NCBI GenBank assembly: GCA_963819815.1
Contig: CAWFXL010000001.1
Coordinates: 607,027-671,026, forward strand
Origin: an uncultured bacterium
Lineage (GTDB): Bacteria > Babelota > Babeliae > Babelales > Babelaceae
DNA: 64,000 bases
Reading direction: 5' to 3'
The stretch's first letter is position 1; each line of letters opens with the position of its first letter. Shown here piece by piece: positions 10,824-58,588 of this stretch. The notes beneath the pieces are model-generated. The model ran no database searches. It was not told the origin of the DNA and was given only the letters and a program-made list of their open reading frames with translations. A program made the position numbers and the translations under genes.

Positions 10824-13241
<2,418 letters not shown>

Positions 13242-32785: not shown

Positions 32786-34243
32786 CTACTTAGGCGGCAT
32801 TTTAGATTTTTGCTCAGAAGAAGTCCAATTAAAATTTTTTGTTATACCCCGAACCACTGCACCTAAAAGCAGGTAAAGAAACGGGGGTAAATCATGTAAG
32901 TCCACTATTGCTTCTTCGACCTCAGGTTCAAGGAGATCATCTATATAGCTAACCAACTTCGTAACACCGTTGCCTGCTCTGAGAGGAGCGTTCAGTGAAT
33001 CGAAAAGATACATGGTTGAGACACCTTCTTTACGCACAACTGCAAGAAGTACCCAGTGGCAGCCAGCAACATTATAAATAAAATACGTAACGGGAAGTGT
33101 TTGTAATTTTTCTTTGAGATGCTTTATTGCATCGACTTTTTTGCCAGTTTTTAATGCTGTGTGAAGAAAACCGATTGTTTCAGGACTAACGAGCTCAATG
33201 GAGTTCGGGTCAATATTCAGCTGTACCGCTGATGGAATAAGATCAACATCGGCACTATATTCTACTGCACCTCCACGCTGCAGTTTCTTAAAGGCCGGAA
33301 GATTAGTGATAGCTTCAGAAAATACTTTCTCAGCCAGTTCACGTGTCCGCGCAAACGTAATTGGTTGCCCTTGCGATACTTGAGCATTCACCGCAACTAA
33401 ATTCGCCAGTGCCGAAAATCCACAGGTATCTTCTATTTGGTTAGAGGACACTACGTACACAAAGGGATTCTTAAGAGAAAGCCCAGACAGAGGAGTACCA
33501 TCATCTAGAGTAGCATAAACAGGACCATGCACATTATTAACGGCTAGTAAGGGATCATATTGTCGACTTGCTATAGAGCGCCATAATAGGTCGCCCGTAT
33601 AGAACCAGGGCGATCGGGAAGCCCTTTTTAGTTTTTCTTGCAAGAGCTTTTCTAGCTTCTCCTTTTCAAGAGAAAGTTCTAGATACAGGCTATCATTGCC
33701 GGCAGCCACAGCTTGATCTATTTTTTCATCTCGCTCTAAGAGCTTTCCCTGGGCTTTTGTAAAGTCTGCCCGGACGGGAGATCTTTTGTCAAAATAGTCT
33801 TGTATATTCAAGGGCTTGGTAGTTGCTTGAGTTGTAGGTTTTACTGCAGGTCTTGAAAGAGGCGATCTGAAAACTGCTGGAGCCATATTCGCATTTTGCA
33901 GCGATTGGACCGCAGAAACATGCATAGTCTCTGCAACTCGACTCGGTACTGCAGGTGATTTTGTTGCATGCGTTTGATCGATAATTTGTTGAGTTTCAGC
34001 CTCTTCAATAAGCTCGTATGCCTTTCTTCGTGCTATAGGAAGCTCTTCTACATTTTTATCCGCTATGGCAATAAGTTGTTCTTCAAGCTCGGCTAAATGA
34101 TATTGATCAATCCCACGTCCTTGGGCTGTTTTTAGAGCATCTTCAAGGAAGATGACATCCGACTGCATGCCTCTACACGAGAAGACTAAGAAACCCGCAA
34201 ACCAAAAGAACAAGCGGATAAAGACTGTGGGGGTTGTTTTCAT
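32786..34243 (-). CDS. Secreted papain-fold Cys protease, Josephin/UCH-like (putative deubiquitinase-type effector), paralog 1
   Basis: 485 aa with a signal peptide and a helical N-terminal half. The C-terminal domain has NQIEDTCGFSALANL (Gln at -5, Cys, L+5, N+7, L+8 as in the Josephin QEGSLCAQHCLNNL). About 120 aa later comes AGCHWVLLAVVRKEGVSTMYLFDSLN (compare Josephin HWFTVRKLGKQWFNLNSL). Confidence 0.5.
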   Translation of the reverse strand: MKTTPTVFIRLFFWFAGFLVFSCRGMQSDVIFLEDALKTAQGRGIDQYHLAELEEQLIAIADKNVEELPIARRKAYELIEEAETQQIIDQTHATKSPAVPSRVAETMHVSAVQSLQNANMAPAVFRSPLSRPAVKPTTQATTKPLNIQDYFDKRSPVRADFTKAQGKLLERDEKIDQAVAAGNDSLYLELSLEKEKLEKLLQEKLKRASRSPWFYTGDLLWRSIASRQYDPLLAVNNVHGPVYATLDDGTPLSGLSLKNPFVYVVSSNQIEDTCGFSALANLVAVNAQVSQGQPITFARTRELAEKVFSEAITNLPAFKKLQRGGAVEYSADVDLIPSAVQLNIDPNSIELVSPETIGFLHTALKTGKKVDAIKHLKEKLQTLPVTYFIYNVAGCHWVLLAVVRKEGVSTMYLFDSLNAPLRAGNGVTKLVSYIDDLLEPEVEEAIVDLHDLPPFLYLLLGAVVRGITKNFNWTSSEQKSKMPPK

Positions 34244-35679: not shown

Positions 35680-37020
35680 CTAGTTTCTTTGTACCAGAAG
35701 ATCATCTATATAGGTAACCAATTTCATAACATCATCACCAACTCTGACAGGAGCATTTGATGAATTGAGAAGATACATACTTGGAACGCCATCTTTGCTA
35801 ACAACTGCAAGAAGTACCCAGTGACAACCTCCTACGTTATAAATGATATATGTAAAGGGAAGTGTATGTAATTTTTCTTTGAGATGCTCTATAGCATCGA
35901 TTTTTCGGCCGGTTTTTAATGCATTATGAAGAAAGCTAATCGTTTCATGGCTAACAAGCTCAATGGTATTTGGATCAATCTTGAGCCGTGCAGCTGAAGG
36001 AATAAGATCAACATCGGCACTGTAGTTCACTGCACCTCCACGCTCTAGATTCTTGAAGGCTGGCAGTGCTGTGATAGTTTCAGAGAATGCTTTTTCAGCC
36101 AGTTCACGCGTCTGTGAAAAGGTTATCGGTTTTCCCTGAGCCACCTGAGCATTCACCGCAAACAAATTTGCAAGCGCCGAAAACCCACAGGTGTTTTCTA
36201 CTTGGTTAAAAGACACAAGGTACACGAAAGGATTCTTCAGAGGAAGAGTAGACAAAGGAGTACCATCATCTAATGCAGCATATACAGGACCATGCACGCT
36301 ACTAATGGCTAGCAAGTGATCAAAGTGTCGAACCGTCATATAACGCCATAATAGATCCCTCGTATAAAACCAGGGAGACTGAGAAGCTTTTCTCAGTCGT
36401 TCTATGAAGGGCGTTTCTATTCCTTCCTTTTCATGAGAAAGTCTTAGATAGAGGCTATCGTTTTGGGCAGCAACAGCTCGCTCTATTTTTTCATCGAGTA
36501 CTCTAAGCTGGCCTTGGGCTTTTGCAAAGTCTGCCTGGAGAGGAGATCTTTTGTCGAAATAGTCTTGTAGATTCAAGGGCTTGATAGCTGCTTGAGTGCT
36601 AGACTTTATTGCAGGTCTTGAAACTGACGTAGATGAATTCGCGTTTCGCTGCGATTGGGATGTAGTAACATCTTCATCGTCGTCGTTTGAAAAAATGCGC
36701 ATAGGTCGTGCACCTTGACTTGGCACTACAGCAGTTTTTGGTTCATTCGTTTGATCGATAATTTGTTGAGTTGCTGCCTCTTCAATAAGCTCGTATGCCT
36801 TTGAGCGTGGAATCGGAAGCTCTTCCTTAGCTGTATCGGCTATGGCAAGAAGTTTGTCTGTAAGCTGTATTCTATGATCTGCATCAATCCCCAGTTTTTG
36901 TGCTCTTGCCAGCGCATCTTCAAGGAAAATTATGTCCGATTGCATAGCTCTGCACGAGAAAGCTGAGAAACTCATAAATAAGAGTGCCCATATGGTAGGG
37001 CTTGTGAAGGTTATTTTCAT
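35680..37020 (-). CDS. Secreted papain-fold Cys protease, Josephin/UCH-like, paralog 2
   Basis: The start was re-set to MKITFTSPTIWALLFMSFSAFSCRAMQSDIIFLEDAL, matching paralog 1's MKTT...FSCRGMQSDVIFLEDAL. The motifs NQVENTCGFSALANL and GGCHWVLLAVVSKDGVPSMYLLNSSN are conserved, with the third residue D->N. Confidence 0.5.
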   Translation of the reverse strand: MKITFTSPTIWALLFMSFSAFSCRAMQSDIIFLEDALARAQKLGIDADHRIQLTDKLLAIADTAKEELPIPRSKAYELIEEAATQQIIDQTNEPKTAVVPSQGARPMRIFSNDDDEDVTTSQSQRNANSSTSVSRPAIKSSTQAAIKPLNLQDYFDKRSPLQADFAKAQGQLRVLDEKIERAVAAQNDSLYLRLSHEKEGIETPFIERLRKASQSPWFYTRDLLWRYMTVRHFDHLLAISSVHGPVYAALDDGTPLSTLPLKNPFVYLVSFNQVENTCGFSALANLFAVNAQVAQGKPITFSQTRELAEKAFSETITALPAFKNLERGGAVNYSADVDLIPSAARLKIDPNTIELVSHETISFLHNALKTGRKIDAIEHLKEKLHTLPFTYIIYNVGGCHWVLLAVVSKDGVPSMYLLNSSNAPVRVGDDVMKLVTYIDDLLVQRN

Positions 37021-37201
37021 AGCAGTGTGTCCTTTTTTCAATGTGTCATAAATCAAAACATTTAATAGTAATTATAACACTTATTGAAAACATGCGCAAG
37101 AACCTGCTGCTTTTCCAGCCTCTATTGCAGCCCAGTCAAGCAACGAGCATACAGGCGCCCCTTCAATTGTATATTGTAGGACTCCACCATCCCAATAGCG
37201 C

Positions 37202-41391: not shown

Positions 41392-42060
41392 ATGTGTTTT
41401 TCTGCCCGCATGAGCTTTTTAGCTGCCGGATTATTGGTAAGTATCGCTATTGCCACCTATCGCAAGATACGGGAATTTAATGAGATTCCTTTTGCCTCGA
41501 TTCCTCTTGCCTTTGCAATTCAGCAAGCTCTCGAGGGAGCTCTCTGGCTCTTACTAAACCAAGGTACACATCCTGGACTCACAGCACTTTGTATGTACGG
41601 ATTTCTTGGGTTTGCCGTGGTATTTTGGCCTGTCTTTATACCCTTTGCGCTCATTCTTATAGAACATCATCCCCTAAGACGTGCGATTATGGGATTTTGT
41701 CTTATCATGGGAAGTACCTGGTCTTTGGCCAGCTTATGGTATCTCATACATGTCGGTGCCACCGTTCAGATTCAGTCTCACCATATCGCCTATACGTTGC
41801 CCGGCTTTGAAAGTATTACGGGACTCCAGTTGCTCATACTGTATAGCTGTATAGTACTTACACCCTTCCTTGTTTCAAGCGATTTTGTCTTGAGACTCGT
41901 TGGTTGCCTTATTGGGGTTTCCTGCCTTATATCATATCTTGTGTGGTACTATTATTTTACCTCAATCTGGTGCTTCTTCGCAGCAATAATCAGTCTAGCC
42001 ATTTACGCTGTCATTATTCATCGTAACCAGAATACTAGACCGAAACAAAACGCTTCTTAA
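41392..42060 (+). CDS. Hypothetical polytopic membrane protein
   Basis: 222 aa with ~6-7 hydrophobic helices. AAAGGAG lies upstream. Confidence 0.55.
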   Translation: MCFSARMSFLAAGLLVSIAIATYRKIREFNEIPFASIPLAFAIQQALEGALWLLLNQGTHPGLTALCMYGFLGFAVVFWPVFIPFALILIEHHPLRRAIMGFCLIMGSTWSLASLWYLIHVGATVQIQSHHIAYTLPGFESITGLQLLILYSCIVLTPFLVSSDFVLRLVGCLIGVSCLISYLVWYYYFTSIWCFFAAIISLAIYAVIIHRNQNTRPKQNAS

Positions 42061-43147
42061 GACTTTTTTGTGAGTAAGCAACTGACTTTGACTGTGAGAT
42101 GTGCATCTTTCGCAAGAGACTAAAAAAGAATTCTCGCTCATGCCCTTTAATTACCGCCTGCTCATGAGCCTCTGAAAGAGCAATCGGATAGCCATTCCCT
42201 TTAACTGATTGATCACAAAGAATAGATAATACCGTATCTAATAACGCAGGATCTTCAGCAACCCATCGAGGCATCTCAACTCGAGCAATTTCATCCCCAA
42301 CATTGAGATACGCAAAATAGGGAACAAGATGTGGAGGATATTCCTTTGCTAACGGTGAGTTGTGGGTAAATACCGTAGTGCGTTCAGAGGGCTTGAGAAA
42401 GGATCCAATAATATCTGTATCTACCGTAGTAAGCAAAATATCCCCTTCAACGATCGGCCCCTTCTTTTGAGCTATACAATTTTTAATCAGTGCAACCAAC
42501 TCTTTGCTCTTTGGCAGACTAATATATCCTGCTATCGGTACGCGAGCCTGATAAAACTCATCAAGTAACCCCATATACCGTTTTAAAAAGCGTTCTTTAA
42601 CAACGGGACTTTTAGATTCGAGATGCCAAAATATTAAGGATCCATCACAGAGAAACACAAAAGGAACTTCAGGATAGGTGCGCATCACCTCTTTCGATGC
42701 TGCGAGTCCTACCTCAAATTCAAGTTCGGCCCGTCGACAATTCACCAGATCTTCAGAAATAAAAGTCTCATCATCATTCTGGGTAACAATCAGCGGAGAA
42801 GATTCAAGCTTTACCTCTGAAGAATTAGTACCATATACAAATTGAGCAGTACCACTATTTAAAACAAAGCAGGGAACACCCTGATGTTTATCGGGATAGA
42901 TTTGCGATCCATCAGTAGCGATAACCGCATAAGGATGCGGCTGTTGGCGTATAGGCACCCTTGCATCCAGAGGACCTTCCCAAAGAGGAACTGGATTAGG
43001 GCCAACCTTGAGAGCTTCAAGTATCTCAGGATGTTCACGTATAAAGAGAAAGAGCTCATGTGCACGGATATACTCATGTGAAAGTTCGGCATACAGATCA
43101 GGTAACGCGCGAGCTATCTCCTGCATTATTTTTAGGGGATCAAGCAT
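42035..43147 (-). CDS. NurA-like nuclease-domain protein (tentative)
   Basis: 370 aa. Two DGS motifs (VIATDGSQIYPD, FLCDGSLIFWHLE) have NurA-like spacing. The start ATGCTTGA overlaps the sufU stop by 8 nt. Confidence 0.4.
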   Translation of the reverse strand: MLDPLKIMQEIARALPDLYAELSHEYIRAHELFLFIREHPEILEALKVGPNPVPLWEGPLDARVPIRQQPHPYAVIATDGSQIYPDKHQGVPCFVLNSGTAQFVYGTNSSEVKLESSPLIVTQNDDETFISEDLVNCRRAELEFEVGLAASKEVMRTYPEVPFVFLCDGSLIFWHLESKSPVVKERFLKRYMGLLDEFYQARVPIAGYISLPKSKELVALIKNCIAQKKGPIVEGDILLTTVDTDIIGSFLKPSERTTVFTHNSPLAKEYPPHLVPYFAYLNVGDEIARVEMPRWVAEDPALLDTVLSILCDQSVKGNGYPIALSEAHEQAVIKGHEREFFFSLLRKMHISQSKSVAYSQKSLKKRFVSV

Positions 43148-46751: not shown

Positions 46752-49322
46752 ATGAAAACGTTAAAGCGACTTTTTAAACTACTTCTTATATGCCTTTTCA
46801 GTGCGCAGTCGCAGGTCAACTGGCAGCTTCGTGCCATGAATGTAGATGCACAAGTGCTACAAGAAAATCAACCGGAAAACAATCCAGTTCTGCCAGAAGG
46901 TGTTTTCGCACTACCAGGAAGTCCAGGCAAGTCAAAAAATGGCTGGCATATCAGGAACATTTCAAACCAAGAACTCTACGCAGCCTGGTATCTTTTTAAA
47001 GATCAACCAAACGGTGTATGGACTCGTATTGATGAACAAATGCACATCCTAAAGTGCGATGAGGAAAAACATATCCCCTTTCCCGATAGGCCTAACCTGG
47101 AAAAAAGATTCTTCGAGTTCAATCCTCAAAGGCGATTACTGGTCAGCACCAATCGGCATATCCATGCTGATGAAATTAAAGTAGATGCCGAAGGGAACCT
47201 TCCCCAAGGGATTGTAGCCTTTTCGCAGCATGACCTGGGGACATTTCAAGGCAAATGCACCTTACTTGTTACACAGAATGGCCCAGAAGTTCGCCTATTA
47301 AACAAGGATATCCGATTAAATAACACAACAAGCAAAGAACTCTATGCCGCCTTATATGATGTAGAGTTACAGGATGGAACCGCTACGAAATGTGACTTAG
47401 ATCAAAAGCTATCGCCACAGCTCAGTGCCATTCTTAAATTACCTCAATGGGGCCTAAGGTTGCAGAAATCTAAGAAAATCATTCTGCTGCTCTCTGAGAC
47501 TAAAGAAAAACTACAACCAAAAATGGCCCAGCAGGAATGGTCCAAACTTATCAATAAATCATTTGAATCATCAAACTGGTATGATTATTATTGGGTGGGG
47601 TCGTATGATATTATTATGAGTGTTGCGGGACACTACTCTATTGTAGGGCAAGGCGGAGGATTCTTCAATGCATGCCTCCGATCAATTGGGGATATCAATC
47701 CCTTTACGGTTAGAGAAATAGAGAATCTTGAAAACAAGCTGCAAGCAGCCCCCCTACCAGAAGCAAATCCTGATGTCGTGGTTACAACAGGAAAAACATC
47801 AAACTTACAGAGAGAAAAAGCCTATCTTGATGAGCGCATCAAGATAGTACGAAAAGCTTTGAATGACCTTATCAATGATCCAGAGTATATGCTTGACGCT
47901 GAAGAAGCACCCCCTACGGTAGCCTTTGTTTTTTCAGGCGGCGGCATTCGTGCTCTTACTGCAACTACAGGCTATCTCAGAGGAGCTGATAATGATGAGG
48001 GTGGAAATATCTTTAACTGCTCAACCCATATGATGGGTCTTTCTGGATCAACATGGGCAATCAATACCCTTGTTGCTTCAGGCATGAGGCCTAGTGAATT
48101 TGCAGAAAAACAACGGACCAAACTCGGAAAAGATATTAAACAGCTCTATTTTGAGCTGATTAATGACAGTATCGATTACAGGAAACGCCGTTTTATGCAA
48201 AGTCGTTATAATCAATATACAGGGATAATTGGGAACTATGGCCATGCCCTTGGTAATGCCCTATGTAAGGATTTCTCGGTCAATGGAAAGCAAACCCATG
48301 ATATTACCCTCTCTGACCTACAAGCTCATCTTGAAAAAGCTGAGTACCCCTTACCCATAAGTGTTGCCACATATTCAGGTGAAACTGACACCTTAAGGAC
48401 CTGGTACGAGTTCAGCCCTTATACGGTAGGTACTGCCCAACATGGCGGAGGATGGGTCGATACAAAATATTTTGGCTCACATTTTAAAGCTGGCAGTCTT
48501 CAGCAAGCCATTCCAGAGCTTCCACTTACCTATTATTTTGGAGTATGGGGATCAGCTTTTGCCCTTGCACCGCAAGATATAGCTAAGTCATCAACCCTAG
48601 GCGGCATTGCCGCGTATACTGTCAGTACATTAAGCTGGCTATCCAATCAGATTTGTGCACTTATGGCACGAAAGGTCTCAAAGACCGAAAGTGATAGACT
48701 CACCGAGGCACATATAGCGAACTTCTTCTATCAGATGAAGGATGGAAACGGTATGCATAGCATATTGGCGAATAAAGAAACAATTCCTCTCATTGATGGC
48801 GGAATTACCAAAGACGCCTCTCATCGGCACAACTTCGCTTCAGTCCCTGCACTTTGCCGAGAGATTGACGTTCTCATAATGTGTGATGCACATGAACATC
48901 CTAATAAGGATAAAGCATCTCACTTGGTAGCCGCTGCCAAAGAAGCTCGTCGCCTTGGGTTACCCTTCCCCGAAATAAAAGAGGAAGGACCTCAAGCAGA
49001 AGCCCTCAAAAAGCAGGTCTCCACGCTCATTATGCCGACTCATGATAATGAACCAATGGTACTCTATATGACCATCAAAAGGAACGCCATATATGATGAG
49101 AAGATAAAAGAGAACCTACATGAAGGATTTGATCCAGATTCAAGTGCTCCTTTTAAAGGTGGGAAACATTTTACTCCCACGGTCAACTTTAGTTATACAG
49201 AGGAACAGTATGACCTTCTTACAGGCCTATCTGAAGAGATCTTTATGCAAAGTAAGGAGCAGATAAAAGATGCACTTAAAAAAGCCATTAAAAGAAAAAG
49301 AAGCGCTCGTAAAAAAGCGTAG
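46752..49322 (+). CDS. Secreted cPLA2-type phospholipase, second paralog
   Basis: 856 aa with a signal peptide. Motifs are FVFSGGGIRALTA (GGGxR), MMGLSGSTWAINTL (GxSGS) and IPLIDGGITKD...IDVLIMCDAHE (Asp motif). The N-terminal ~370 aa contain two related modules (ELYAAWYLF.. / ELYAALYDV..). Confidence 0.75.
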   Translation: MKTLKRLFKLLLICLFSAQSQVNWQLRAMNVDAQVLQENQPENNPVLPEGVFALPGSPGKSKNGWHIRNISNQELYAAWYLFKDQPNGVWTRIDEQMHILKCDEEKHIPFPDRPNLEKRFFEFNPQRRLLVSTNRHIHADEIKVDAEGNLPQGIVAFSQHDLGTFQGKCTLLVTQNGPEVRLLNKDIRLNNTTSKELYAALYDVELQDGTATKCDLDQKLSPQLSAILKLPQWGLRLQKSKKIILLLSETKEKLQPKMAQQEWSKLINKSFESSNWYDYYWVGSYDIIMSVAGHYSIVGQGGGFFNACLRSIGDINPFTVREIENLENKLQAAPLPEANPDVVVTTGKTSNLQREKAYLDERIKIVRKALNDLINDPEYMLDAEEAPPTVAFVFSGGGIRALTATTGYLRGADNDEGGNIFNCSTHMMGLSGSTWAINTLVASGMRPSEFAEKQRTKLGKDIKQLYFELINDSIDYRKRRFMQSRYNQYTGIIGNYGHALGNALCKDFSVNGKQTHDITLSDLQAHLEKAEYPLPISVATYSGETDTLRTWYEFSPYTVGTAQHGGGWVDTKYFGSHFKAGSLQQAIPELPLTYYFGVWGSAFALAPQDIAKSSTLGGIAAYTVSTLSWLSNQICALMARKVSKTESDRLTEAHIANFFYQMKDGNGMHSILANKETIPLIDGGITKDASHRHNFASVPALCREIDVLIMCDAHEHPNKDKASHLVAAAKEARRLGLPFPEIKEEGPQAEALKKQVSTLIMPTHDNEPMVLYMTIKRNAIYDEKIKENLHEGFDPDSSAPFKGGKHFTPTVNFSYTEEQYDLLTGLSEEIFMQSKEQIKDALKKAIKRKRSARKKA

Positions 49323-54028: not shown

Positions 54029-54673
54029 ATGCAAACCCATTACCTGAGACCATCTATGGCAAAATATCAACGTATTGATAAAGACAATTCCCTCGTCCTC
54101 TTTGTTGATCACCAGACAGGACTCATAAGCCTTGTTCATGACTTTTCACCAAGCGAATTTAAGAACAATATACTGGCACTTGCCGATATTGCCCTGTATT
54201 TTAAACTTCCGGTAATCTTAACAACGAGTTTTGAAAATGGTCCGAATGGTCCAATAGTTCCTGAGTTGAAAGAGATATTACCCCACGCTACTTTTATACC
54301 CCGTCCTGGACAAATTAATGCTTGGGACAACGAAGATTTTGTGAACGCAATCAAAGCGAGCGGCAAGAAACAACTTATCATCGCAGGGATTGTAACAGAC
54401 GTATGCGTTGCCTTCCCCACTCTTTCCGCCCTCGAAGCTGGTTATGAAGTTTTTGTAGTAACCGATGCTGCAGGAACAACCAGTGCTGCCGTACGTGATG
54501 CTGCACATCTTCGAATGAGCCAAGCAGGGGCCCAACTCATGAATTGGTTTAGCGTGGCCTCTGAATTGCAACGAGACTGGCGTAATGACGTTAAAGGGTT
54601 TGGTGAATTACTTATTAAACATGAACCAAACTACAAAGCTCTCATGGCAAGCTATAATGCCCTTAAAAAATAA
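54029..54673 (+). CDS. ycaC: Isochorismatase-family cysteine hydrolase, YcaC type
   Basis: Full-length resemblance to YcaC as I recall it: LVLFVDHQTGLISLV, FKNNILAL, TTSFENGPNGPIVPELK, NAWDNEDFVNAIKASGKKQLIIAGIVTDVCVAFP, VVTDAAGT, SQAGAQLMNWFSVASELQRDWRND. Confidence 0.85.
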   Translation: MQTHYLRPSMAKYQRIDKDNSLVLFVDHQTGLISLVHDFSPSEFKNNILALADIALYFKLPVILTTSFENGPNGPIVPELKEILPHATFIPRPGQINAWDNEDFVNAIKASGKKQLIIAGIVTDVCVAFPTLSALEAGYEVFVVTDAAGTTSAAVRDAAHLRMSQAGAQLMNWFSVASELQRDWRNDVKGFGELLIKHEPNYKALMASYNALKK

Positions 54674-54729
54674 TTTCGCCAAGCAAGCTCGTCACTAGTG
54701 AGAGCACTTTGCATTATGAATTCATGAAG

Positions 54730-54769
54730 ATTACCTGCAATTGCACCAGTCGTTAAAATTGCAGGTAAT
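54730..54769 (+). terminator. Hairpin downstream of ycaC
   Basis: attacctgcaatt (54730..54742) pairs with aattgcaggtaat (54757..54769), giving a 13-bp perfect stem and a 14-nt loop. No strong T-run follows. Confidence 0.35.
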
Positions 54770-55187
54770 GTGTTCATTCCCTCCTCTGTCTTTGCGCCAC
54801 TGAAGCAATTTTTCTTTTTTTGTTCACCAGTTTGACAAGCAATGCCTTTTATGGTATATTTTTTCTGTTGAGGTATAACATCGTGTTATGCCATATGCTA
54901 AAAGAGTTAAAAAGATGAAAAGCACATACAACAGTTTTGCTTCTAATCAAGGTTCATGGGTCAATCCCATGAGCAGCTCTCATAGCGCTCTTTTGGCATT
55001 CCCTCTCAACGCTCTCATTATTACTTCTATTCTGTCCTACGGGACTAAACATATAAAATAAACACTTACCCTCATTTTTGTTGTCTATTTTTCAAATCAC
55101 CTGATCATGGTGTGAGAATCACCTGCAGTCATGTGGAAAATAGTCATTGGATAGAATAATTACATCAATTACTTGATTGGAATTACT

Positions 55188-56069
55188 ATGTTAATACATT
55201 GTATAGTAAGCATGATGATGCTTACATTTACATGCACCGCATTCTGCATGGAGGATGATTCCTCTGTTCGTGTGCTTGCAAAGGAAGCTGCAATTGGTAC
55301 AGTTGCTGGAGCCGCAGAGGTAACTGCTAACTCTCCACTTATCTATTTCAAGAATGCTATGCAGCAGGGCCATAAAATATCTATGGATCCAAAGGTATGG
55401 TACCGTGGGTACGGAATGAATGTCACCGCAATGGGACCTACAACTGCTATCCAAATCTGCACAGATAGAGGACTTGAAACAGTTGTGCCGGGAACCGATT
55501 TGTACAGCAAAGTAGCTCGTGCATTTACTGCCGGAGCTCTTTCTGCAACGGTAAATGGGCCCATTGAGTTGGTCATCAGAGATCAACAGGAACATAATGG
55601 AACTGCACTAGCAACCTGCAAAAAAGTGCTTTCGGGTGGTGGATTGCGTGCGTTTGGTCGCGGATGGGCAGCAACCGCGTTGCGTGAAGGCGGATTTGCC
55701 ACGGGGTACTTGGTTGCTTTCCCTATGGCTGAAGAAGCAATAAAGAAAGCACAAGATGCCGCTCAAAGCAATATAGAGGATCCATGGGTAAAAGCGATAG
55801 TATCACACCCTGCCTGCTCCTATGTTGGTGCTGGAGCTGCGACGGGTATCGCTTTTGCCGTGGCAACACATCCTTGTGATACGGTGAAAACAAAGCTCCA
55901 AGCGGATTACCAAGGTGCTTTATTCAAGAACACCCAAGATGTGGTACGAACTGTGATTGCTCAGAAAGGCGTCGCTGGTCTTTTCGCAGGCGCATCACCA
56001 CGAGCAGTACGTGCTGGATTAGCAATTCCCTTGATAGGTACTATAAAAAAGTATTTTTCAGAGGAATAA
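55188..56069 (+). CDS. Mitochondrial carrier family (SLC25-type) transporter
   Basis: The protein has three ~95-aa repeats, each with two hydrophobic helices. Carrier signatures are SPLIYFKNA..(VWYRGYG), GPIELVIRD..(RAFGRGWAATALRE) and HPCDTVKTKLQ..(GLFAGASPRAVR); the third repeat matches P-x-[DE]-x-x-[KR]-x-[KR] exactly. The start is uncertain (TTG 55173, ATG 55188 or ATG 55248). Confidence 0.8.
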   Translation: MLIHCIVSMMMLTFTCTAFCMEDDSSVRVLAKEAAIGTVAGAAEVTANSPLIYFKNAMQQGHKISMDPKVWYRGYGMNVTAMGPTTAIQICTDRGLETVVPGTDLYSKVARAFTAGALSATVNGPIELVIRDQQEHNGTALATCKKVLSGGGLRAFGRGWAATALREGGFATGYLVAFPMAEEAIKKAQDAAQSNIEDPWVKAIVSHPACSYVGAGAATGIAFAVATHPCDTVKTKLQADYQGALFKNTQDVVRTVIAQKGVAGLFAGASPRAVRAGLAIPLIGTIKKYFSEE

Positions 56070-56266: not shown

Positions 56267-56314
56267 GAGTGCCAATTCCAGTTATACCTAAGGCCTGTAT
56301 TGAGGGGGCATCAG

Positions 56315-58588
56315 ATGCTGCATAGAAAACTATTTCTTGGTGGATTTCTTGTATGTGAGATAATCTGTAGTGCCGCTTCACACAGTCGTAGCATTGAACC
56401 ACAGGTCGTTGCCATACTACCTCCTGAGAAAACGTTCTTTTTCGGGACTAGACAATGGCCTCTCAAAGTAGAACCACATTTGCTGCATTTCATGGAAAAT
56501 TATACCGAAGAAAATGGGTACGTATATTTACCAAAAATTTCGTATCATACAGGACTTCTGGTAACCGACCTCCTTCATTTGCTGCATCGTCTTGAATCTG
56601 AAGATGCGCGCCATCACCAAGAATTTAAAGACGAGCTCATAGAGCGTATTGGTAGTCTTGAAAATGGAGAATTGCTTGAGGCCTTCTATGCTACTCATCA
56701 TTTAAAGATCTCTGCTCTTAAGGAAGCTATTAAAAAAGCTATTAGAGAACGATCCTTCCTGGGAAAGAAGAAAATCAAAGTATCTAACATCCTACTTCAC
56801 TTACAACACTCTCGGCCAGAAATCATGTTTTTACACTGGGCAGAACCACTTCAGAACTGCACCATGCAAGAGGGCGTTATTGATGTAACTGCATTTCCCC
56901 GCTCTACAATAGAGTTTATCCTTACGCAACTAGACTTGGTCAATGAGACAATCGTCACACGTGGGAACGAAGATTCAGTTAGCAAAAAAATTAAAGCGCA
57001 TATTAAAAAACTTGAAGGCAACGATCTCGTAAAGCTTTTCAATGCTTCACGTGTCTTACATATCTCTACTATCCATTGGTTAGCCGAAGAAGCTCTCCGA
57101 GAACTTGAACAGCCCACGAGTATTACTGCTCAAAACCTCCTAGATTTACCAACTGATACTCGTAATACGTTCCTTAAAGAAACGATACGCAAGTTGTTTG
57201 AAATAAGGACCCGTTTGGTCGATAACGGTATTGCTAGTGGTACACTTCATGTGCCACCTGATGGGTCATTAGTCCTTGCTGGTTGTTGTTATGATTGTAC
57301 TATGATTGCTCTTACGACGGAGAGCACTCACCGTCAATCTTTCGTGGGTCATGAAAGACCTGTAACAGCTATCTGTATAACATCCGACAATCAGACTTTG
57401 GTAAGCGGTTCTGATGATGGTACAGTGCGTGTTTGGGATAGGCAGGGAGAGCAGCGTGCTGCTTATTCGCATCCTCAACCTGTAAGTACTCTATGCCTTT
57501 CACCCGATGGAAAAACAATCGTTGCAAGCTTTGATGACGGGATTATGCTCATTTGGAATTTCCCCGATGCTCCAAACCTGATTTCTGGTAATGCACTAGC
57601 TACTGCACGCGATTTATCAGGTACAAAAACATGGGAAGCTGATCCAGCATGGTTAGCAAAAGAACAAGGCCACTCAAAGATTACAGCAACCTGCGTCTCA
57701 TCAACTGGCAAGATAATCATTACGGGCACCGAAGATGGTGTTGTACGTATATGGGATATGAATGGTAGGCTAAAAGCAGTTTGCCATTGTGCACTGAAAA
57801 AAAAGATTCTTGCCGTGTCTACGACGCCTGATGATATTCTTAAAGTGTCCACGAGTCCTGATGATACGGTCATGGCAGTTACAGGCGATGGGATGGTGCT
57901 TATGTGGGAACAGTCTACACACTTTGTGAGGGGAGTATACCCATACATTGAAGGGTTATCACTCATCGATTTTTTTGTAGCTAAAGAAGGAGCCCAGGTG
58001 CCTACCTTAGTACAATGCGAAGTATCTCCTAATGGTTCTTTGGGCGCAACAGGAGTTCATGCAGCTTATATTGCGCCAAATGGCAGCATAGTCATTTTAG
58101 GAACGAATAAAGGAACGGTGAATATCTGGGACATCATAAATACCACAGCATGCAGAGTCTGCAGAGGCCATGAAGGTTGTATTAACTCGGTAAGCATGTC
58201 GCCCGATATGACCTCTATTATTTCAACTGCAGAAGATGGAACGGTACGTATTTGGAGCAAAGATGGTCAGTTGCTGGCAATATGTGATCATGATGACGAT
58301 CAAGAGGCTACCAAGGCAGTCCACGTAACAGGAAATGGTAAGATTGTTGCCAATTCTGATGATGGAAGCATATATGCTTGGAATATACAAAAAAACATAC
58401 AATGGAACTTCAATTTCGGTACTGTGCGAAGCTATATTGCACAAGCGAGCAGCAATCAAGTGAGAGGAATCTGGTCTCTGTTGCAGCGCCACTCTAAAGA
58501 ATATGGCATCGCTGATCAAGAAGAATGTTGGGAAGAAATACAAAGGCTTATAGCTAGAAGCACATCTAGAACTAGCTCAAGAACCTAA
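56315..58588 (+). CDS. WD40-repeat protein with two N-terminal BTB/Skp1-like helical repeats
   Basis: The ATG at 56315 was preferred. The C-terminal ~450 aa contain WD40 units (GHERPVTAICITSDNQTLVSGSDDGTVRVWD, TGTEDGVVRIWD, GTNKGTVNIWD, STAEDGTVRIWS, NSDDGSIYAWN). The N-terminus has two ~120-aa repeats ending LLEAFYATHHLKISALKEAIKKAI and LVKLFNASRVLHISTIHWLAEEAL. Confidence 0.8.
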   Translation: MLHRKLFLGGFLVCEIICSAASHSRSIEPQVVAILPPEKTFFFGTRQWPLKVEPHLLHFMENYTEENGYVYLPKISYHTGLLVTDLLHLLHRLESEDARHHQEFKDELIERIGSLENGELLEAFYATHHLKISALKEAIKKAIRERSFLGKKKIKVSNILLHLQHSRPEIMFLHWAEPLQNCTMQEGVIDVTAFPRSTIEFILTQLDLVNETIVTRGNEDSVSKKIKAHIKKLEGNDLVKLFNASRVLHISTIHWLAEEALRELEQPTSITAQNLLDLPTDTRNTFLKETIRKLFEIRTRLVDNGIASGTLHVPPDGSLVLAGCCYDCTMIALTTESTHRQSFVGHERPVTAICITSDNQTLVSGSDDGTVRVWDRQGEQRAAYSHPQPVSTLCLSPDGKTIVASFDDGIMLIWNFPDAPNLISGNALATARDLSGTKTWEADPAWLAKEQGHSKITATCVSSTGKIIITGTEDGVVRIWDMNGRLKAVCHCALKKKILAVSTTPDDILKVSTSPDDTVMAVTGDGMVLMWEQSTHFVRGVYPYIEGLSLIDFFVAKEGAQVPTLVQCEVSPNGSLGATGVHAAYIAPNGSIVILGTNKGTVNIWDIINTTACRVCRGHEGCINSVSMSPDMTSIISTAEDGTVRIWSKDGQLLAICDHDDDQEATKAVHVTGNGKIVANSDDGSIYAWNIQKNIQWNFNFGTVRSYIAQASSNQVRGIWSLLQRHSKEYGIADQEECWEEIQRLIARSTSRTSSRT

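What the first reader, a model, noticed from the sequence alone, without database searches (positions are those of the whole stretch)
55188..56069. Mitochondrial carrier family (SLC25) transporter encoded by a bacterium
The ORF has the defining tripartite structure: three ~95-aa repeats, each with two TM helices. Carrier signatures are present, including an exact P-x-D-x-x-K-x-K (HPCDTVKTKLQ) in repeat 3, degenerate versions in repeats 1-2, and the (Y/F)RG / G..P...R second-helix motifs.

This family is essentially eukaryote-specific. Bacterial examples, such as the Legionella nucleotide carrier effector, are rare and are translocated into host mitochondria. An extra hydrophobic N-terminal segment precedes repeat 1 if the upstream starts are used. 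The neighbours are also eukaryote-like (the WD40 protein).
Basis: partly seen in the sequence, partly recalled or inferred. Interest (0 to 1): 0.7.

Follow-up and report, generated by a model that had tools for sequence, protein, structure and literature searches.

The report
Signal-peptide-bearing mitochondrial carrier in Dependentiae
A parasitic bacterium of protists (phylum Dependentiae) carries an intact, selectively maintained copy of a transporter type normally found only in mitochondria, and it and about 90 sequence clusters of relatives (those inspected lie on bacterial contigs) have an added bacterial export signal, so it probably works in the bacterium's own membrane rather than being injected into host mitochondria as in Legionella.

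Summary
ORF 55188-56069 (+) encodes a 293-aa mitochondrial carrier family (SLC25) protein. Each of its three repeats passes Pfam's PF00153 cut-off on its own. The AlphaFold model (pLDDT 83) matches UCP1 and ADP/ATP carrier structures. dN/dS against a 94%-identical Dependentiae MAG is 0.06 for the mature part.

The "extra hydrophobic N-terminal segment" is a Sec-type signal peptide. It is preceded by an SD-like GGA and is present in about 91 related 50%-identity clusters. All the loci I inspected for these are bacterial contigs.

These clusters form a bacterial radiation next to an uncharacterised eukaryotic carrier subfamily (oomycetes, algae, Marchantia, Fonticula). A second bacterial clade, with one member on a gammaproteobacterial MAG, lacks the signal.

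Dependentiae are reported to have only a type II secretion system. Some homologues sit in conserved housekeeping synteny or next to amino-acid transporters, and one is translationally coupled to one.

My best reading (about 0.5) is Sec-dependent insertion into the bacterium's own inner membrane in mitochondrion-like orientation, importing an amino-acid-like host metabolite (contact point II = R-E). The LncP-like host-mitochondria effector reading stays open (about 0.3), because every eukaryote-like protein in the window also has a signal peptide.

Carriers in Dependentiae were mentioned once, in the 2015 Babela paper. I rate this a new variant of a known kind.

The parts
55179..55182 (+). Shine-Dalgarno-like GGAA, 6-9 nt upstream of the start codon
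   Evidence: AGGA/GGA lies 7-9 nt upstream of the signal-peptide start ATG in the window, L001, L002 (ATG 9977), L004, L005 (ATG 8037) and L006. This supports 55188 as the real start, so the hydrophobic segment is translated.
55188..55247 (+). Signal peptide, residues 1-20 (MLIHCIVSMMMLTFTCTAFC). Predicted signal-peptidase I site is A18-F19-C20 | M21-E-D-D.
   Evidence: This is the most hydrophobic stretch of the protein (KD about 1.9-2.2). An equivalent n/h/c-region segment is present in 91 related clusters: median uncharged run 17 residues, mean n-region charge +1.4, small residue at -1, and E/D after the site. dN/dS is 0.32, with hydrophobicity-preserving changes against L001. SignalP was not available and cleavage has not been shown.
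55248..56066 (+). Mature carrier, residues 21-293 (six transmembrane helices, three matrix helices)
   Evidence: Pfam PF00153 scores 81 bits. The AF2 model has pLDDT 83. Foldseek matches UCP1 and AAC. dN/dS is 0.064 at dS 0.31 against L001.
55269..55487 (+). Carrier repeat 1 (residues about 28-100). H1 carries E44 and N48-S-P50-L-I-Y-F-K55-N-A-M-Q59. The H2 lead-in is W71-Y-R-G74. Contact point I is A81.
   Evidence: PF00153 scores 22.7 bits alone.
55494..55757 (+). Carrier repeat 2 (residues about 103-190). It has P125-I-E127-L-V-I130-R-D-Q-Q134 and F156-G-R-G159. Contact point II is R166-E167.
   Evidence: PF00153 scores 26.5 bits alone. R166 is present in 157 of 158 subfamily members and [DE]167 in about 149 of 158. 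The register is fixed by the alignments to bovine AAC1 R279 and yeast Ggc1.
55800..56066 (+). Carrier repeat 3 (residues about 205-293). It has the canonical P229-C-D231-T-V-K234-T-K236-L-Q238, then F266-A-G268 and P271-R272-A-V-R275. Contact point III is R275.
   Evidence: PF00153 scores 49.8 bits alone. Profile position 264 (= R275) aligns to AAC1 R279.
56067..56069 (+). Stop codon
54832..54860 (+). Possible own promoter (TTGACA-17-TATATT with TG, 11/12), about 330 nt upstream of the start
   Evidence: This is a consensus scan only. Total hits in the region are not above shuffles (6 against 4.0 +/- 2.1). No riboswitch was found in the leader.
54029..54673 (+). Upstream neighbour: YcaC-type isochorismatase-family cysteine hydrolase, no signal peptide. 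Context only.
   Evidence: NCBIfam NF041461 scores 360 bits against a cut-off of 310. N-terminus.
56300..58588 (+). Downstream neighbour: 762-aa WD40-repeat protein with its own N-terminal signal peptide. Context only.
   Evidence: Pfam WD40 scores 135.6 bits. N-terminus ...LFLGGFLVCEIICSAAS.

Best explanation
The gene encodes a functional mitochondrial-carrier-family transporter of a Dependentiae bacterium, an obligate intracellular parasite of protists.

It descends from an orphan eukaryotic carrier subfamily by horizontal transfer. It now belongs to a large bacterial radiation in which an N-terminal Sec-type signal peptide has been added in front of the carrier.

Proposed mechanism, with shown and inferred steps marked:

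1. The signal peptide is translated. This is supported by the SD-like motif and by conservation.
2. It targets the weakly hydrophobic carrier to SecYEG/YidC (inferred).
3. Whether it is cleaved or kept as an anchor, it places the N-terminus in the periplasm. The six helices then sit in the bacterium's own cytoplasmic membrane with the 'cytosolic' face towards the periplasm and host cytosol, and the 'matrix' face towards the bacterial cytoplasm. That is the same orientation as in a mitochondrion (inferred).
4. There it works by the usual alternating-access cycle. Two of the three matrix salt bridges, all three glutamine braces and the central binding site are conserved (shown at sequence level).
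5. It takes a host metabolite into a cell that cannot make its own building blocks. The substrate is probably amino-acid-like or zwitterionic (weakly inferred).
For: It is a real, constrained carrier.
- Three PF00153 repeats each pass the cut-off.
- The fold matches carriers.
- dN/dS is 0.064.
- The binding-site and gate residues E44, K55, Q59, E127, Q134, R166, [DE]167, D231, K234, Q238, R272 and R275 are conserved in about 90% or more of 158 subfamily members, except K234 (about 83%) and R275 (about 80%).

The signal peptide is real and systematic.
- 91 clusters carry it, with canonical n/h/c features.
- An SD-like motif lies upstream of its ATG at 6 of 7 loci.
- Eukaryotic relatives lack it: 115 of 116 in the eukaryote-type clade.

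No injection system is reported for the phylum. T2SS is the only secretion system reported (PMC4378268; PMC4776705). The Babela authors listed their carriers among import transporters.

Genomic context resembles a housekeeping transporter.
- There is conserved synteny AspS/AsnS <-> carrier ... SodFe-DivIC-S41 peptidase in L002, L012 and L013.
- In L002 the carrier's stop overlaps the ATGA start of a basic amino acid/polyamine antiporter-like APC gene.
- In L010 an SNF-family symporter gene lies 147 nt upstream on the same strand, followed by murD and ftsW.
- In L011 the carrier is followed by AlaX-like, beta-eliminating-lyase and DUF2000 genes.

Charge bias fits the proposed topology. K+R is 15.8 on matrix-side loops against 6.7 on the other side. 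This is stronger than in eukaryotic relatives, which have 13.6 against 8.9.

Substrate class. Contact point II is R-[DE]. From my own knowledge of Robinson & Kunji 2006, this is the amino-acid-carrier signature. The reviews read here confirm only that contact point II sets the substrate class.
Against: - In this window every eukaryote-like, presumably host-directed protein also has a signal peptide: the ankyrin protein, two cPLA2-like proteins, two WD40 proteins and several unknowns. The signal alone therefore does not say 'own membrane'.
- The six helices of the signal-peptide clade are not more hydrophobic than those of eukaryotic relatives, and are slightly less so. There is no sign of adaptation to Sec-type lateral insertion.
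- Transporter neighbours occur at only 2-3 of about 12 loci. In the window the gene stands alone next to a WD40 gene.
- A sister bacterial clade without the signal exists, with one member on a gammaproteobacterial MAG, and may be effector-like.
- No experiment or localisation data exist.
- The absence of T4SS/T3SS was taken from the literature on other Dependentiae. It was not checked in this genome.
- SignalP and topology predictors were not available.
Confidence: 0.5

Rival explanations
1. Host-directed effector. The carrier is exported by Sec, leaves the bacterium through the type II system or outer-membrane vesicles, is picked up by the host's TOM/TIM22 pathway and inserts into the host mitochondrial inner membrane. 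There it changes metabolite flux for the parasite's benefit, as Legionella LncP does.
For: - LncP is a precedent (PMC3252375).
- In Dependentiae the signal peptide is the general mark of presumed effectors: 79 of 126 ankyrin proteins in Babela and 78% in Chromulinavorax. All eukaryote-like proteins of this window have one.
- The helices are as weakly hydrophobic as in genuine mitochondrial carriers, so they might pass through SecYEG.
- Chromulinavorax remodels the host mitochondrion and sheds vesicles.
- A closely related signal-less bacterial clade, one member of which lies on a gammaproteobacterial MAG, looks like T4SS-effector material.
- In the window and in L004-L006 the neighbours are WD40 or ankyrin genes.
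Against: - Type II secretion handles folded soluble proteins. No route is known for a six-helix membrane protein from periplasm to host cytosol.
- Dependentiae are reported to lack T3SS/T4SS.
- The conserved housekeeping synteny and the operon-like linkage to bona fide bacterial membrane transporters are unusual for effectors.
- Purifying selection is strong, and the clade is broad with stable positions in the subclade examined.
Confidence: 0.3
2. The carrier is exported and inserts into another host-facing membrane, such as the vacuole or replication-body boundary or vesicles, to make that membrane permeable to a metabolite.
For: The same export arguments apply as for the effector reading. 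Intracellular bacteria commonly modify their vacuole membranes (general knowledge).
Against: No evidence is specific to this reading. Chromulinavorax is described as lying in the cytoplasm with only its own two membranes. The delivery problem is the same as for the effector reading.
Confidence: 0.08
3. Not a working bacterial gene: a eukaryotic contaminant contig, a recently transferred decaying pseudogene, or an N-terminal extension created by gene calling.
For: gyrB in the same window is broken across three or more frames, so the assembly contains frameshifts or pseudogenes. About half of the family have a Met exactly at the predicted mature N-terminus, so an internal start is conceivable.
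Against: - The contig is densely bacterial.
- L011, which carries a homologue, contains a bacterial 16S rRNA start.
- The ORF is intact, with dN/dS 0.06.
- An SD-like motif precedes the upstream ATG, not M21.
- The hydrophobic segment keeps signal-peptide architecture in 91 clusters that are less than 50% identical to each other. Untranslated DNA would not do that.
Confidence: 0.02

Closest known systems
Legionella pneumophila LncP (Dot/Icm-translocated nucleotide carrier; PMC3252375)
   Same: It is a bacterial-encoded mitochondrial carrier family protein of an amoeba-associated intracellular bacterium, presumably acquired from a eukaryote. It has the same fold and tripartite repeats.
   Different: LncP is delivered by the Dot/Icm type IV system and is thought to bypass SecYEG/YidC; I did not see its N-terminus. 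This protein has a Sec signal peptide and comes from a phylum reported to have only T2SS. No Legionella-named protein appeared among the 120 listed relatives. The predicted binding site here is of amino-acid type (R-E), whereas LncP transports ATP.
[quoted passage not shown]
   Same: Same phylum and same protein family. The authors also list them among the bacterium's import transporters. These are probably members of the same radiation.
   Different: That paper gives only one sentence. It does not describe the signal peptide, the size of the family, the eukaryotic sister subfamily or the binding-site residues.
Orphan eukaryotic MCF subfamily (Phytophthora/Pythium/Saprolegnia, Marchantia, Monoraphidium, Scenedesmus, diatoms, Fonticula alba XP_009494278.1, Telonema)
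   Same: It shares the diagnostic residues: E six residues before the H1 proline, [ND]-Q-P...K-N..Q-Q in H1, P-x-E-x-x-[IMV] in H3, R-[DE] at contact point II and P-R-x-x-R in H6. Identity is about 29% and profile scores are 150-200 bits.
   Different: The eukaryotic proteins have no signal peptide (115 of 116 in the clade) and a weaker charge bias. They are uncharacterised themselves. Automated names disagree: citrate, carnitine, oxodicarboxylate and glycine carrier.
Giant-virus mitochondrial carriers (e.g. mimivirus VMC1; Pithovirus, Yasminevirus, Dasosvirus carriers in BFVD)
   Same: They are carriers captured by parasites of protists. The fold matches at TM 0.66-0.70.
   Different: Only 12-19% identity. 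The viral proteins are made in the host cytosol, so they can use the normal mitochondrial import route. No Sec signal is involved.
Bacterial/plastid NTT ATP/ADP translocases of Chlamydiae, Rickettsiales and Dependentiae
   Same: This is a functional analogy for the favoured reading. NTTs are transporters used by obligate intracellular bacteria in their own inner membrane to tap host cytosolic pools.
   Different: It is an unrelated 12-helix family, not homologous, and has no cleavable signal peptide.

Membership tests
Mitochondrial carrier family (SLC25 / Pfam PF00153) | Three tandem repeats of about 100 residues, each matching Mito_carr | tested here: met
   The whole protein scores 81.2 bits. 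Repeats scanned alone score 22.7, 26.5 and 49.8 bits against a cut-off of 22.3.
Mitochondrial carrier family (SLC25 / Pfam PF00153) | Six transmembrane helices plus three short matrix helices in a three-fold pseudo-symmetric barrel | tested here: met
   The AF2 model has pLDDT 82.9, and its helices H24-59, 75-96, 105-136, 160-193, 208-239 and 269-291 are joined by short helices in between. The Foldseek top 14 PDB hits are all carriers, TM 0.57-0.72.
Mitochondrial carrier family (SLC25 / Pfam PF00153) | PX[DE]XX[KR]X[KR] on H1, H3 and H5 (matrix salt-bridge network) with glutamine braces | tested here: inconclusive
   The motif is complete only in repeat 3 (P229-C-D-T-V-K-T-K). Repeat 1 is P-L-I-Y-F-K-N-A and repeat 2 is P-I-E-L-V-I-R-D. 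This leaves two of three inter-domain pairs (D231-K55, E127-K234), with I52/I130 in place of the third. The variant is conserved across the subfamily. Q59, Q134 and Q238 are all present.
Mitochondrial carrier family (SLC25 / Pfam PF00153) | [FY][DE]XX[KR] on H2, H4 and H6 (cytoplasmic network) | tested here: inconclusive
   By inspection only H4 has a recognisable E183-A-I-K186, and E183 is A in L001. H2 (T-D93-R-G-L-E97) and H6 (G-T-I-K-K) deviate. I did not analyse coordinates.
Mitochondrial carrier family (SLC25 / Pfam PF00153) | Central substrate site at contact points on H2/H4/H6, with a basic residue at contact point III | tested here: met
   The register comes from alignments to AAC1 (R79, R279) and Ggc1. 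Contact point I is A81, II is R166-E167 and III is R275.
Mitochondrial carrier family (SLC25 / Pfam PF00153) | Resides in the mitochondrial inner membrane, imported via TOM/TIM22 without a cleavable N-terminal signal | not testable with these tools
   The sequence instead carries a bacterial Sec-type signal. Localisation is unknown.
LncP-type translocated carrier effector (Legionella) | Substrate of a Dot/Icm type IV system encoded by the same bacterium | not testable with these tools
   No secretion-system gene was seen among the window ORFs scanned. The literature reports only T2SS in Dependentiae. The rest of the genome is not available.
LncP-type translocated carrier effector (Legionella) | Bypasses SecYEG/YidC (expected: no N-terminal Sec signal) | tested here: not met
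   A signal peptide is present here and in 91 related clusters. The LncP property is from PMC3252375.
LncP-type translocated carrier effector (Legionella) | Sequence affiliation with LncP | not tested
   The LncP sequence was not obtainable. No Legionella-named hit appears among the listed relatives.
Sec (type I) signal peptide | Basic n-region, uncharged hydrophobic h-region of 10 or more residues, and small residues at -3/-1 | tested here: met
   In the window, the h-region I6-F19 is uncharged and the site is A18-x-C20|M21. The n-region has only H4, but L001 has R3. For the family, the median uncharged run is 17, the mean n-charge is +1.4, and -1 is A/G/T/C/S in 38 of 41 scored sequences. 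These are heuristic scripts, not SignalP.
Sec (type I) signal peptide | Actually cleaved or exported | not testable with these tools
   This needs N-terminal proteomics or reporter fusions.

The most novel reading that the evidence does not exclude
A whole bacterial phylum has domesticated a mitochondrial carrier for its own cytoplasmic membrane by bolting a Sec signal peptide onto it. The parasite then presents to the host cytosol the same transporter, in the same orientation, as the host's mitochondria, and competes with them for a metabolite. This would be the first carrier-family protein shown to be inserted by SecYEG/YidC instead of TIM22 as its native route. It would also be a natural experiment on how this 'eukaryote-only' fold can be assembled in a bacterial membrane.
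Probability: 0.5. Interest if true: 0.8.

Novelty: new variant of a known kind. Interest (0 to 1): 0.62.

Why it matters
The SLC25 family is treated as a eukaryotic signature. Its few bacterial members are described as a handful of effectors in Legionellales, Chlamydiales and Rickettsiales (PMC5621508).

Here there is a large, conserved radiation, found on bacterial contigs wherever context was inspected, with a systematic bacterial export signal, in a phylum without an injection system.

If the carriers sit in the bacterial inner membrane, three things follow:
- they add a second horizontally acquired transporter class, besides NTT translocases, to the toolkit of energy and metabolite parasites;
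- they show that the carrier fold can be assembled natively by the Sec/YidC pathway;
- they offer naturally bacterial-expressible carriers for structural and transport work.

If instead they reach host mitochondria, they reveal an unknown Sec-dependent route for delivering a polytopic membrane protein into a host organelle.

Either way, they point to an uncharacterised eukaryotic carrier subfamily (oomycetes, algae, liverwort) whose substrate is worth finding.

Tried and rejected
1. Hydrophobicity test. I expected the signal-peptide clade to have more hydrophobic helices if it were adapted to Sec insertion. It does not: it is slightly less hydrophobic than its eukaryotic relatives. This gives no support to either reading.
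2. Riboswitch or RNA element in the roughly 500-nt leader that might reveal the substrate. Nothing was found in the window (only a chance-level Hatchet hit, E = 0.7) or at nine homologous loci.
3. Conserved operon partner across the family. There is none. Synteny is conserved only within one subclade (L002, L012, L013), and transporter neighbours occur at 2-3 loci.
4. Other carrier paralogues in the window. There are none.
5. Substrate by nearest characterised relative. PDB sequence hits rank UCP2 > UCP1 > AAC > Ggc1 > OGC at low scores. Source annotations of relatives disagree: citrate, carnitine, oxodicarboxylate and glycine. I therefore relied only on contact-point residues. From memory, the H4/H6 motifs (T-x-L-R-x-G, P-R-x-x-R) resemble the citrate carrier SLC25A1. 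I did not use this as evidence.
6. Direct comparison with LncP and with the Babela proteins. The sequences were not obtainable with the tools.
7. Literature. No paper in the library holds both 'Dependentiae' and 'mitochondrial carrier'. Only the Babela paper mentions carriers in this phylum.
8. Eukaryotic contamination was rejected on gene content, the SD-like motif and a 16S fragment on a homologous contig.
9. The first NJ tree was badly rooted. I redid it with an outgroup clade. It still has no support values.
Full report
**1. What is at the coordinates**

A single ORF runs 55173-56069 on the + strand. That start gives 293 aa identical to a metagenome protein, P0001. A GGA(A) lies 6-9 nt upstream. 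The same AGGA/GGA-spacer-ATG arrangement precedes the equivalent ATG at L001, L002, L004, L005 and L006. All residue numbers below count from this Met.

Pfam Mito_carr scores 81.2 bits, E = 4.6e-23. Scanned separately, the three thirds score 22.7, 26.5 and 49.8 bits against a cut-off of 22.3.

An AlphaFold2 model built from 15 homologues has mean pLDDT 82.9 and pTM 0.78. It shows six long helices, three short connecting helices and a low-confidence N-terminal helix. Its best 14 PDB matches are all mitochondrial carriers: UCP1, yeast and bovine ADP/ATP carriers, and carriers bound to Tetrahymena complex IV, with TM 0.57-0.72. Its best viral matches are giant-virus carriers.

Against a 94%-identical copy in a MAG titled Candidatus Dependentiae bacterium (L001), dS is 0.31. 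dN/dS is 0.064 for the mature part.

**2. Whose gene it is**

The window is bacterial. It carries sufB, sufD and sufS, dnaJ, tilS, RNase HII, a DD-carboxypeptidase, a Ku/ligase pair, a Y-family polymerase and a tRNA.

It also carries many eukaryote-like genes: an 819-aa ankyrin protein, two cPLA2-like proteins and two WD40-type proteins.

Dependentiae (TM6) are obligate intracellular parasites of protists. They lack pathways for amino acids, nucleotides, lipids and cofactors. They rely on transporters, including ATP/ADP translocases, and are reported to have a type II secretion system as their only secretion system (PMC4378268; PMC4776705; PMC6561590).

**3.

Residues 1-20 are MLIHCIVSMMMLTFTCTAFC, followed by MEDD. 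This is the most hydrophobic stretch of the protein.

All close homologues have the same architecture: a short, often basic n-region, an uncharged hydrophobic core, a small residue at -1, and then acidic residues.

A full HMMER profile search of 1.84 billion representatives found 347 clusters at E<=1e-30. Among the roughly 257 retrieved members of this subfamily, 91 carry such a segment. In these, the median uncharged run is 17 residues and the mean n-region charge is +1.4. The residue at -1 is A/G/T/C/S in 38 of 41 scored sequences, and the residue after the site is E/D in 29 of 41.

Between the window and L001 the segment evolves faster (dN/dS 0.32) but keeps its hydrophobicity: M to I, F to V, three synonymous changes, and a gain of R in the n-region.

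Taken together with the SD-like motif upstream of its ATG, this shows that the segment is translated and behaves as a Sec-type signal peptide. SignalP could not be run, and cleavage has not been shown.

**4. The family around it**

The subfamily is defined by the following residues:
- E44 six residues before the H1 proline;
- [ND]-Q-P50...K55-N56..Q59 in H1;
- P125-x-E127-x-x-[IMV]130...Q134 in H3;
- R166-[DE]167 in H4;
- P229-x-D231-x-x-K234...Q238 in H5;
- P-R272-x-x-R275 in H6.

Each is conserved in about 90% or more of 158 members, except the more variable [ND]48-Q49 pair, K234 (about 83%) and R275 (about 80%).

An outgroup-rooted neighbour-joining tree, without support values, separates three assemblages.

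(i) A eukaryote-type clade of 116, of which 115 have no signal peptide. Its named members come from Phytophthora, Pythium, Saprolegnia, Marchantia, Monoraphidium, Scenedesmus, diatoms, Fonticula, Telonema and Ostreobium.

(ii) A contiguous set of signal-peptide clades. The nine such homologue loci inspected (L002, L004-L006, L008, L010-L014) lie on contigs with bacterial gene content, many of them ankyrin-rich. One carries a bacterial 16S start, and one contig is 1.3 Mb long.

(iii) A clade of about 30 without a signal peptide, with the motif N-H-P-L-W-T-I-K-T-R. It includes GJM06434.1 from a gammaproteobacterial MAG.

The eukaryotic subfamily is itself uncharacterised. Source annotations call relatives citrate, carnitine, oxodicarboxylate or glycine carriers.

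Because carriers are ancestrally eukaryotic (established knowledge), the direction of transfer is inferred to be eukaryote to bacterium. The signal peptide would have been added afterwards.

**5. Transport machinery**

The matrix network is reduced but not degenerate. D231-K55 and E127-K234 can pair. The third pair is replaced by I52/I130, and this replacement is conserved across the subfamily. All three glutamine braces are present. The cytoplasmic network is only recognisable on H4.

The contact-point register was fixed by HMMER alignments to bovine AAC1 (profile position 264 = R275 aligns to R279) and to yeast Ggc1 (mapped). This gives contact point I = A81, II = R166-E167 and III = R275.

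The reviews read here confirm that contact point II discriminates substrate class. That R-[DE] marks amino-acid carriers is my recollection of Robinson & Kunji 2006, so it is a lead, not a test.

**6. Where it works**

These points favour the bacterium's own inner membrane.

- The signal peptide, whether cleaved or not, puts the N-terminus in the periplasm. It thereby reproduces the mitochondrial orientation (inference).
- The helices are too weakly hydrophobic to be good signal anchors. A hydrophobic leader is a plausible way to engage SRP/Sec (inference).
- K+R is 15.8 on the matrix-side loops against 6.7 on the other side. This is a stronger bias than in eukaryotic relatives, which show 13.6 against 8.9.
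- The phylum lacks an injection system according to the literature.
- In one subclade the gene keeps a fixed place between AspS/AsnS and SodFe-DivIC-S41 peptidase (L002, L012, L013).
- In L002 its stop codon overlaps the start (ATGA) of a basic amino acid/polyamine antiporter-like APC gene.
- In L010 an SNF-family symporter gene lies 147 nt upstream on the same strand.
- In L011 it is followed by AlaX-like and beta-eliminating-lyase genes.
- The Babela authors also filed their carriers under import transporters.

These points count against it.

- Every eukaryote-like protein in this window also has a signal peptide, as reported for ankyrin proteins of Babela and Chromulinavorax. The signal is therefore also the phylum's mark for presumed host-directed proteins.
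- The helices of the signal-peptide clade are not more hydrophobic than those of eukaryotic relatives.
- Chromulinavorax manipulates the host mitochondrion.
- The sister clade without a signal peptide has a member on a gammaproteobacterial MAG and may be effector-like.

I put the own-membrane importer at about 0.5. A host-mitochondria effector reaching the host by an unknown Sec-dependent route is at about 0.3. Other host membranes are at about 0.08, and artefact at about 0.02.

**7. Comparison with what is known**

It is a member of the SLC25/MCF family by repeats and fold, with a conserved variant of the gate motifs.

It is not an LncP-type effector in the features that could be tested. It has a Sec signal, and no Dot/Icm system is reported for the phylum. 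Sequence affiliation with LncP could not be tested.

Carriers in Dependentiae were mentioned once, in the Babela genome paper. NCBI already names one relative 'MC/SLC25 family protein [bacterium]'. The literature describes bacterial carriers as present in 'a handful of bacterial strains' (PMC5621508).

Four things appear not to have been described in the library searched:
- the systematic signal peptide;
- the size of the bacterial radiation;
- its orphan eukaryotic sister subfamily;
- the second bacterial clade, which lacks the signal peptide.

I therefore rate it a new variant of a known kind.

**8. Limits**

- There are no localisation or transport data.
- Signal-peptide and hydrophobicity analyses used simple scripts.
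- The tree is neighbour-joining without support values.
- The phylum assignment rests on one MAG title plus gene content.
- The absence of other secretion systems was not checked in this genome.
- The substrate class rests on two residues and a few gene neighbourhoods.

Noticed in passing
window 10831-13241 (+): gyrB is split over at least three reading frames: HATPase_c at 10831-11301, the DNA_gyraseB domain at 11460-11843, and the GyrB C-terminus at 12333-13241. This means either assembly indels or a pseudogene. Either way, it is a warning about the sequence quality of the window.
   Followed up: partly
window 26974-29676 and 46752-49322 (+); also L012 545-1807 and L013 2185-4107: There are large proteins with a eukaryotic cytosolic-phospholipase-A2-type catalytic domain (PF01735 PLA2_B) and N-terminal signal peptides. 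A PLA2_B gene also lies in the conserved neighbourhood of the carrier in two related contigs.
   Followed up: partly
window, N-termini of ORFs at 26974, 32786 (-), 35680 (-), 52826 and 55188; family-wide: A methionine sits immediately after the predicted signal-peptide cleavage site (small residue | M, then an acidic or polar residue). It recurs in about half of the 91 signal-peptide carriers and in several unrelated exported proteins of this window. It could be a relic of the original start codon, a second start giving a signal-less isoform, or a lineage-specific cleavage preference.
   Followed up: partly
L009 10001-10840 (GJM06434.1, 'marine bacterium B5-7', Gammaproteobacteria); about 28 related clusters: There is a second clade of the same carrier subfamily without a signal peptide, with the motif N-H-P-L-W-T-I-K-T-R-x-Q. 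The one member whose context I inspected lies on a gammaproteobacterial MAG; other members lie on contigs up to 541 kb. These are candidates for T4SS-type effectors. Their relation to LncP is untested.
   Followed up: partly
window 58669-60027 (-); L013 6876-8102; L012 4164-5345; L006 13973-15439: An AAA_14/DUF4143 ATPase gene recurs within a few genes of the carrier gene in four otherwise different contigs.
   Followed up: no
window 23097-24868 (-): There is a Ku plus ATP-dependent DNA ligase pair (bacterial non-homologous end joining) in a reduced intracellular bacterium. NurA lies at 42035-43147.
   Followed up: no
window 32786-34243 (-) and 35680-37056 (-): Two paralogous proteins of unknown function have signal peptides and near-identical mature N-termini (MQSD[VI]IFLEDAL...). 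Neither has a Pfam match.
   Followed up: no
window 54674-55187: There is an unusually long (about 500 nt) intergenic region upstream of the carrier gene, with a near-consensus sigma-70-like site at 54832-54860 (11/12). No Rfam family matches it. Homologous loci also have upstream gaps of about 150-900 nt, and short ORFs are called there in L004 and L005.
   Followed up: partly
L012 2580-4089: The AspS/AsnS gene of this contig is broken into four pieces and its AAA_14/DUF4143 gene into two. These ENA assemblies, from the same ERZ250394xx series as L002 and L008, seem prone to frameshifts.
   Followed up: no
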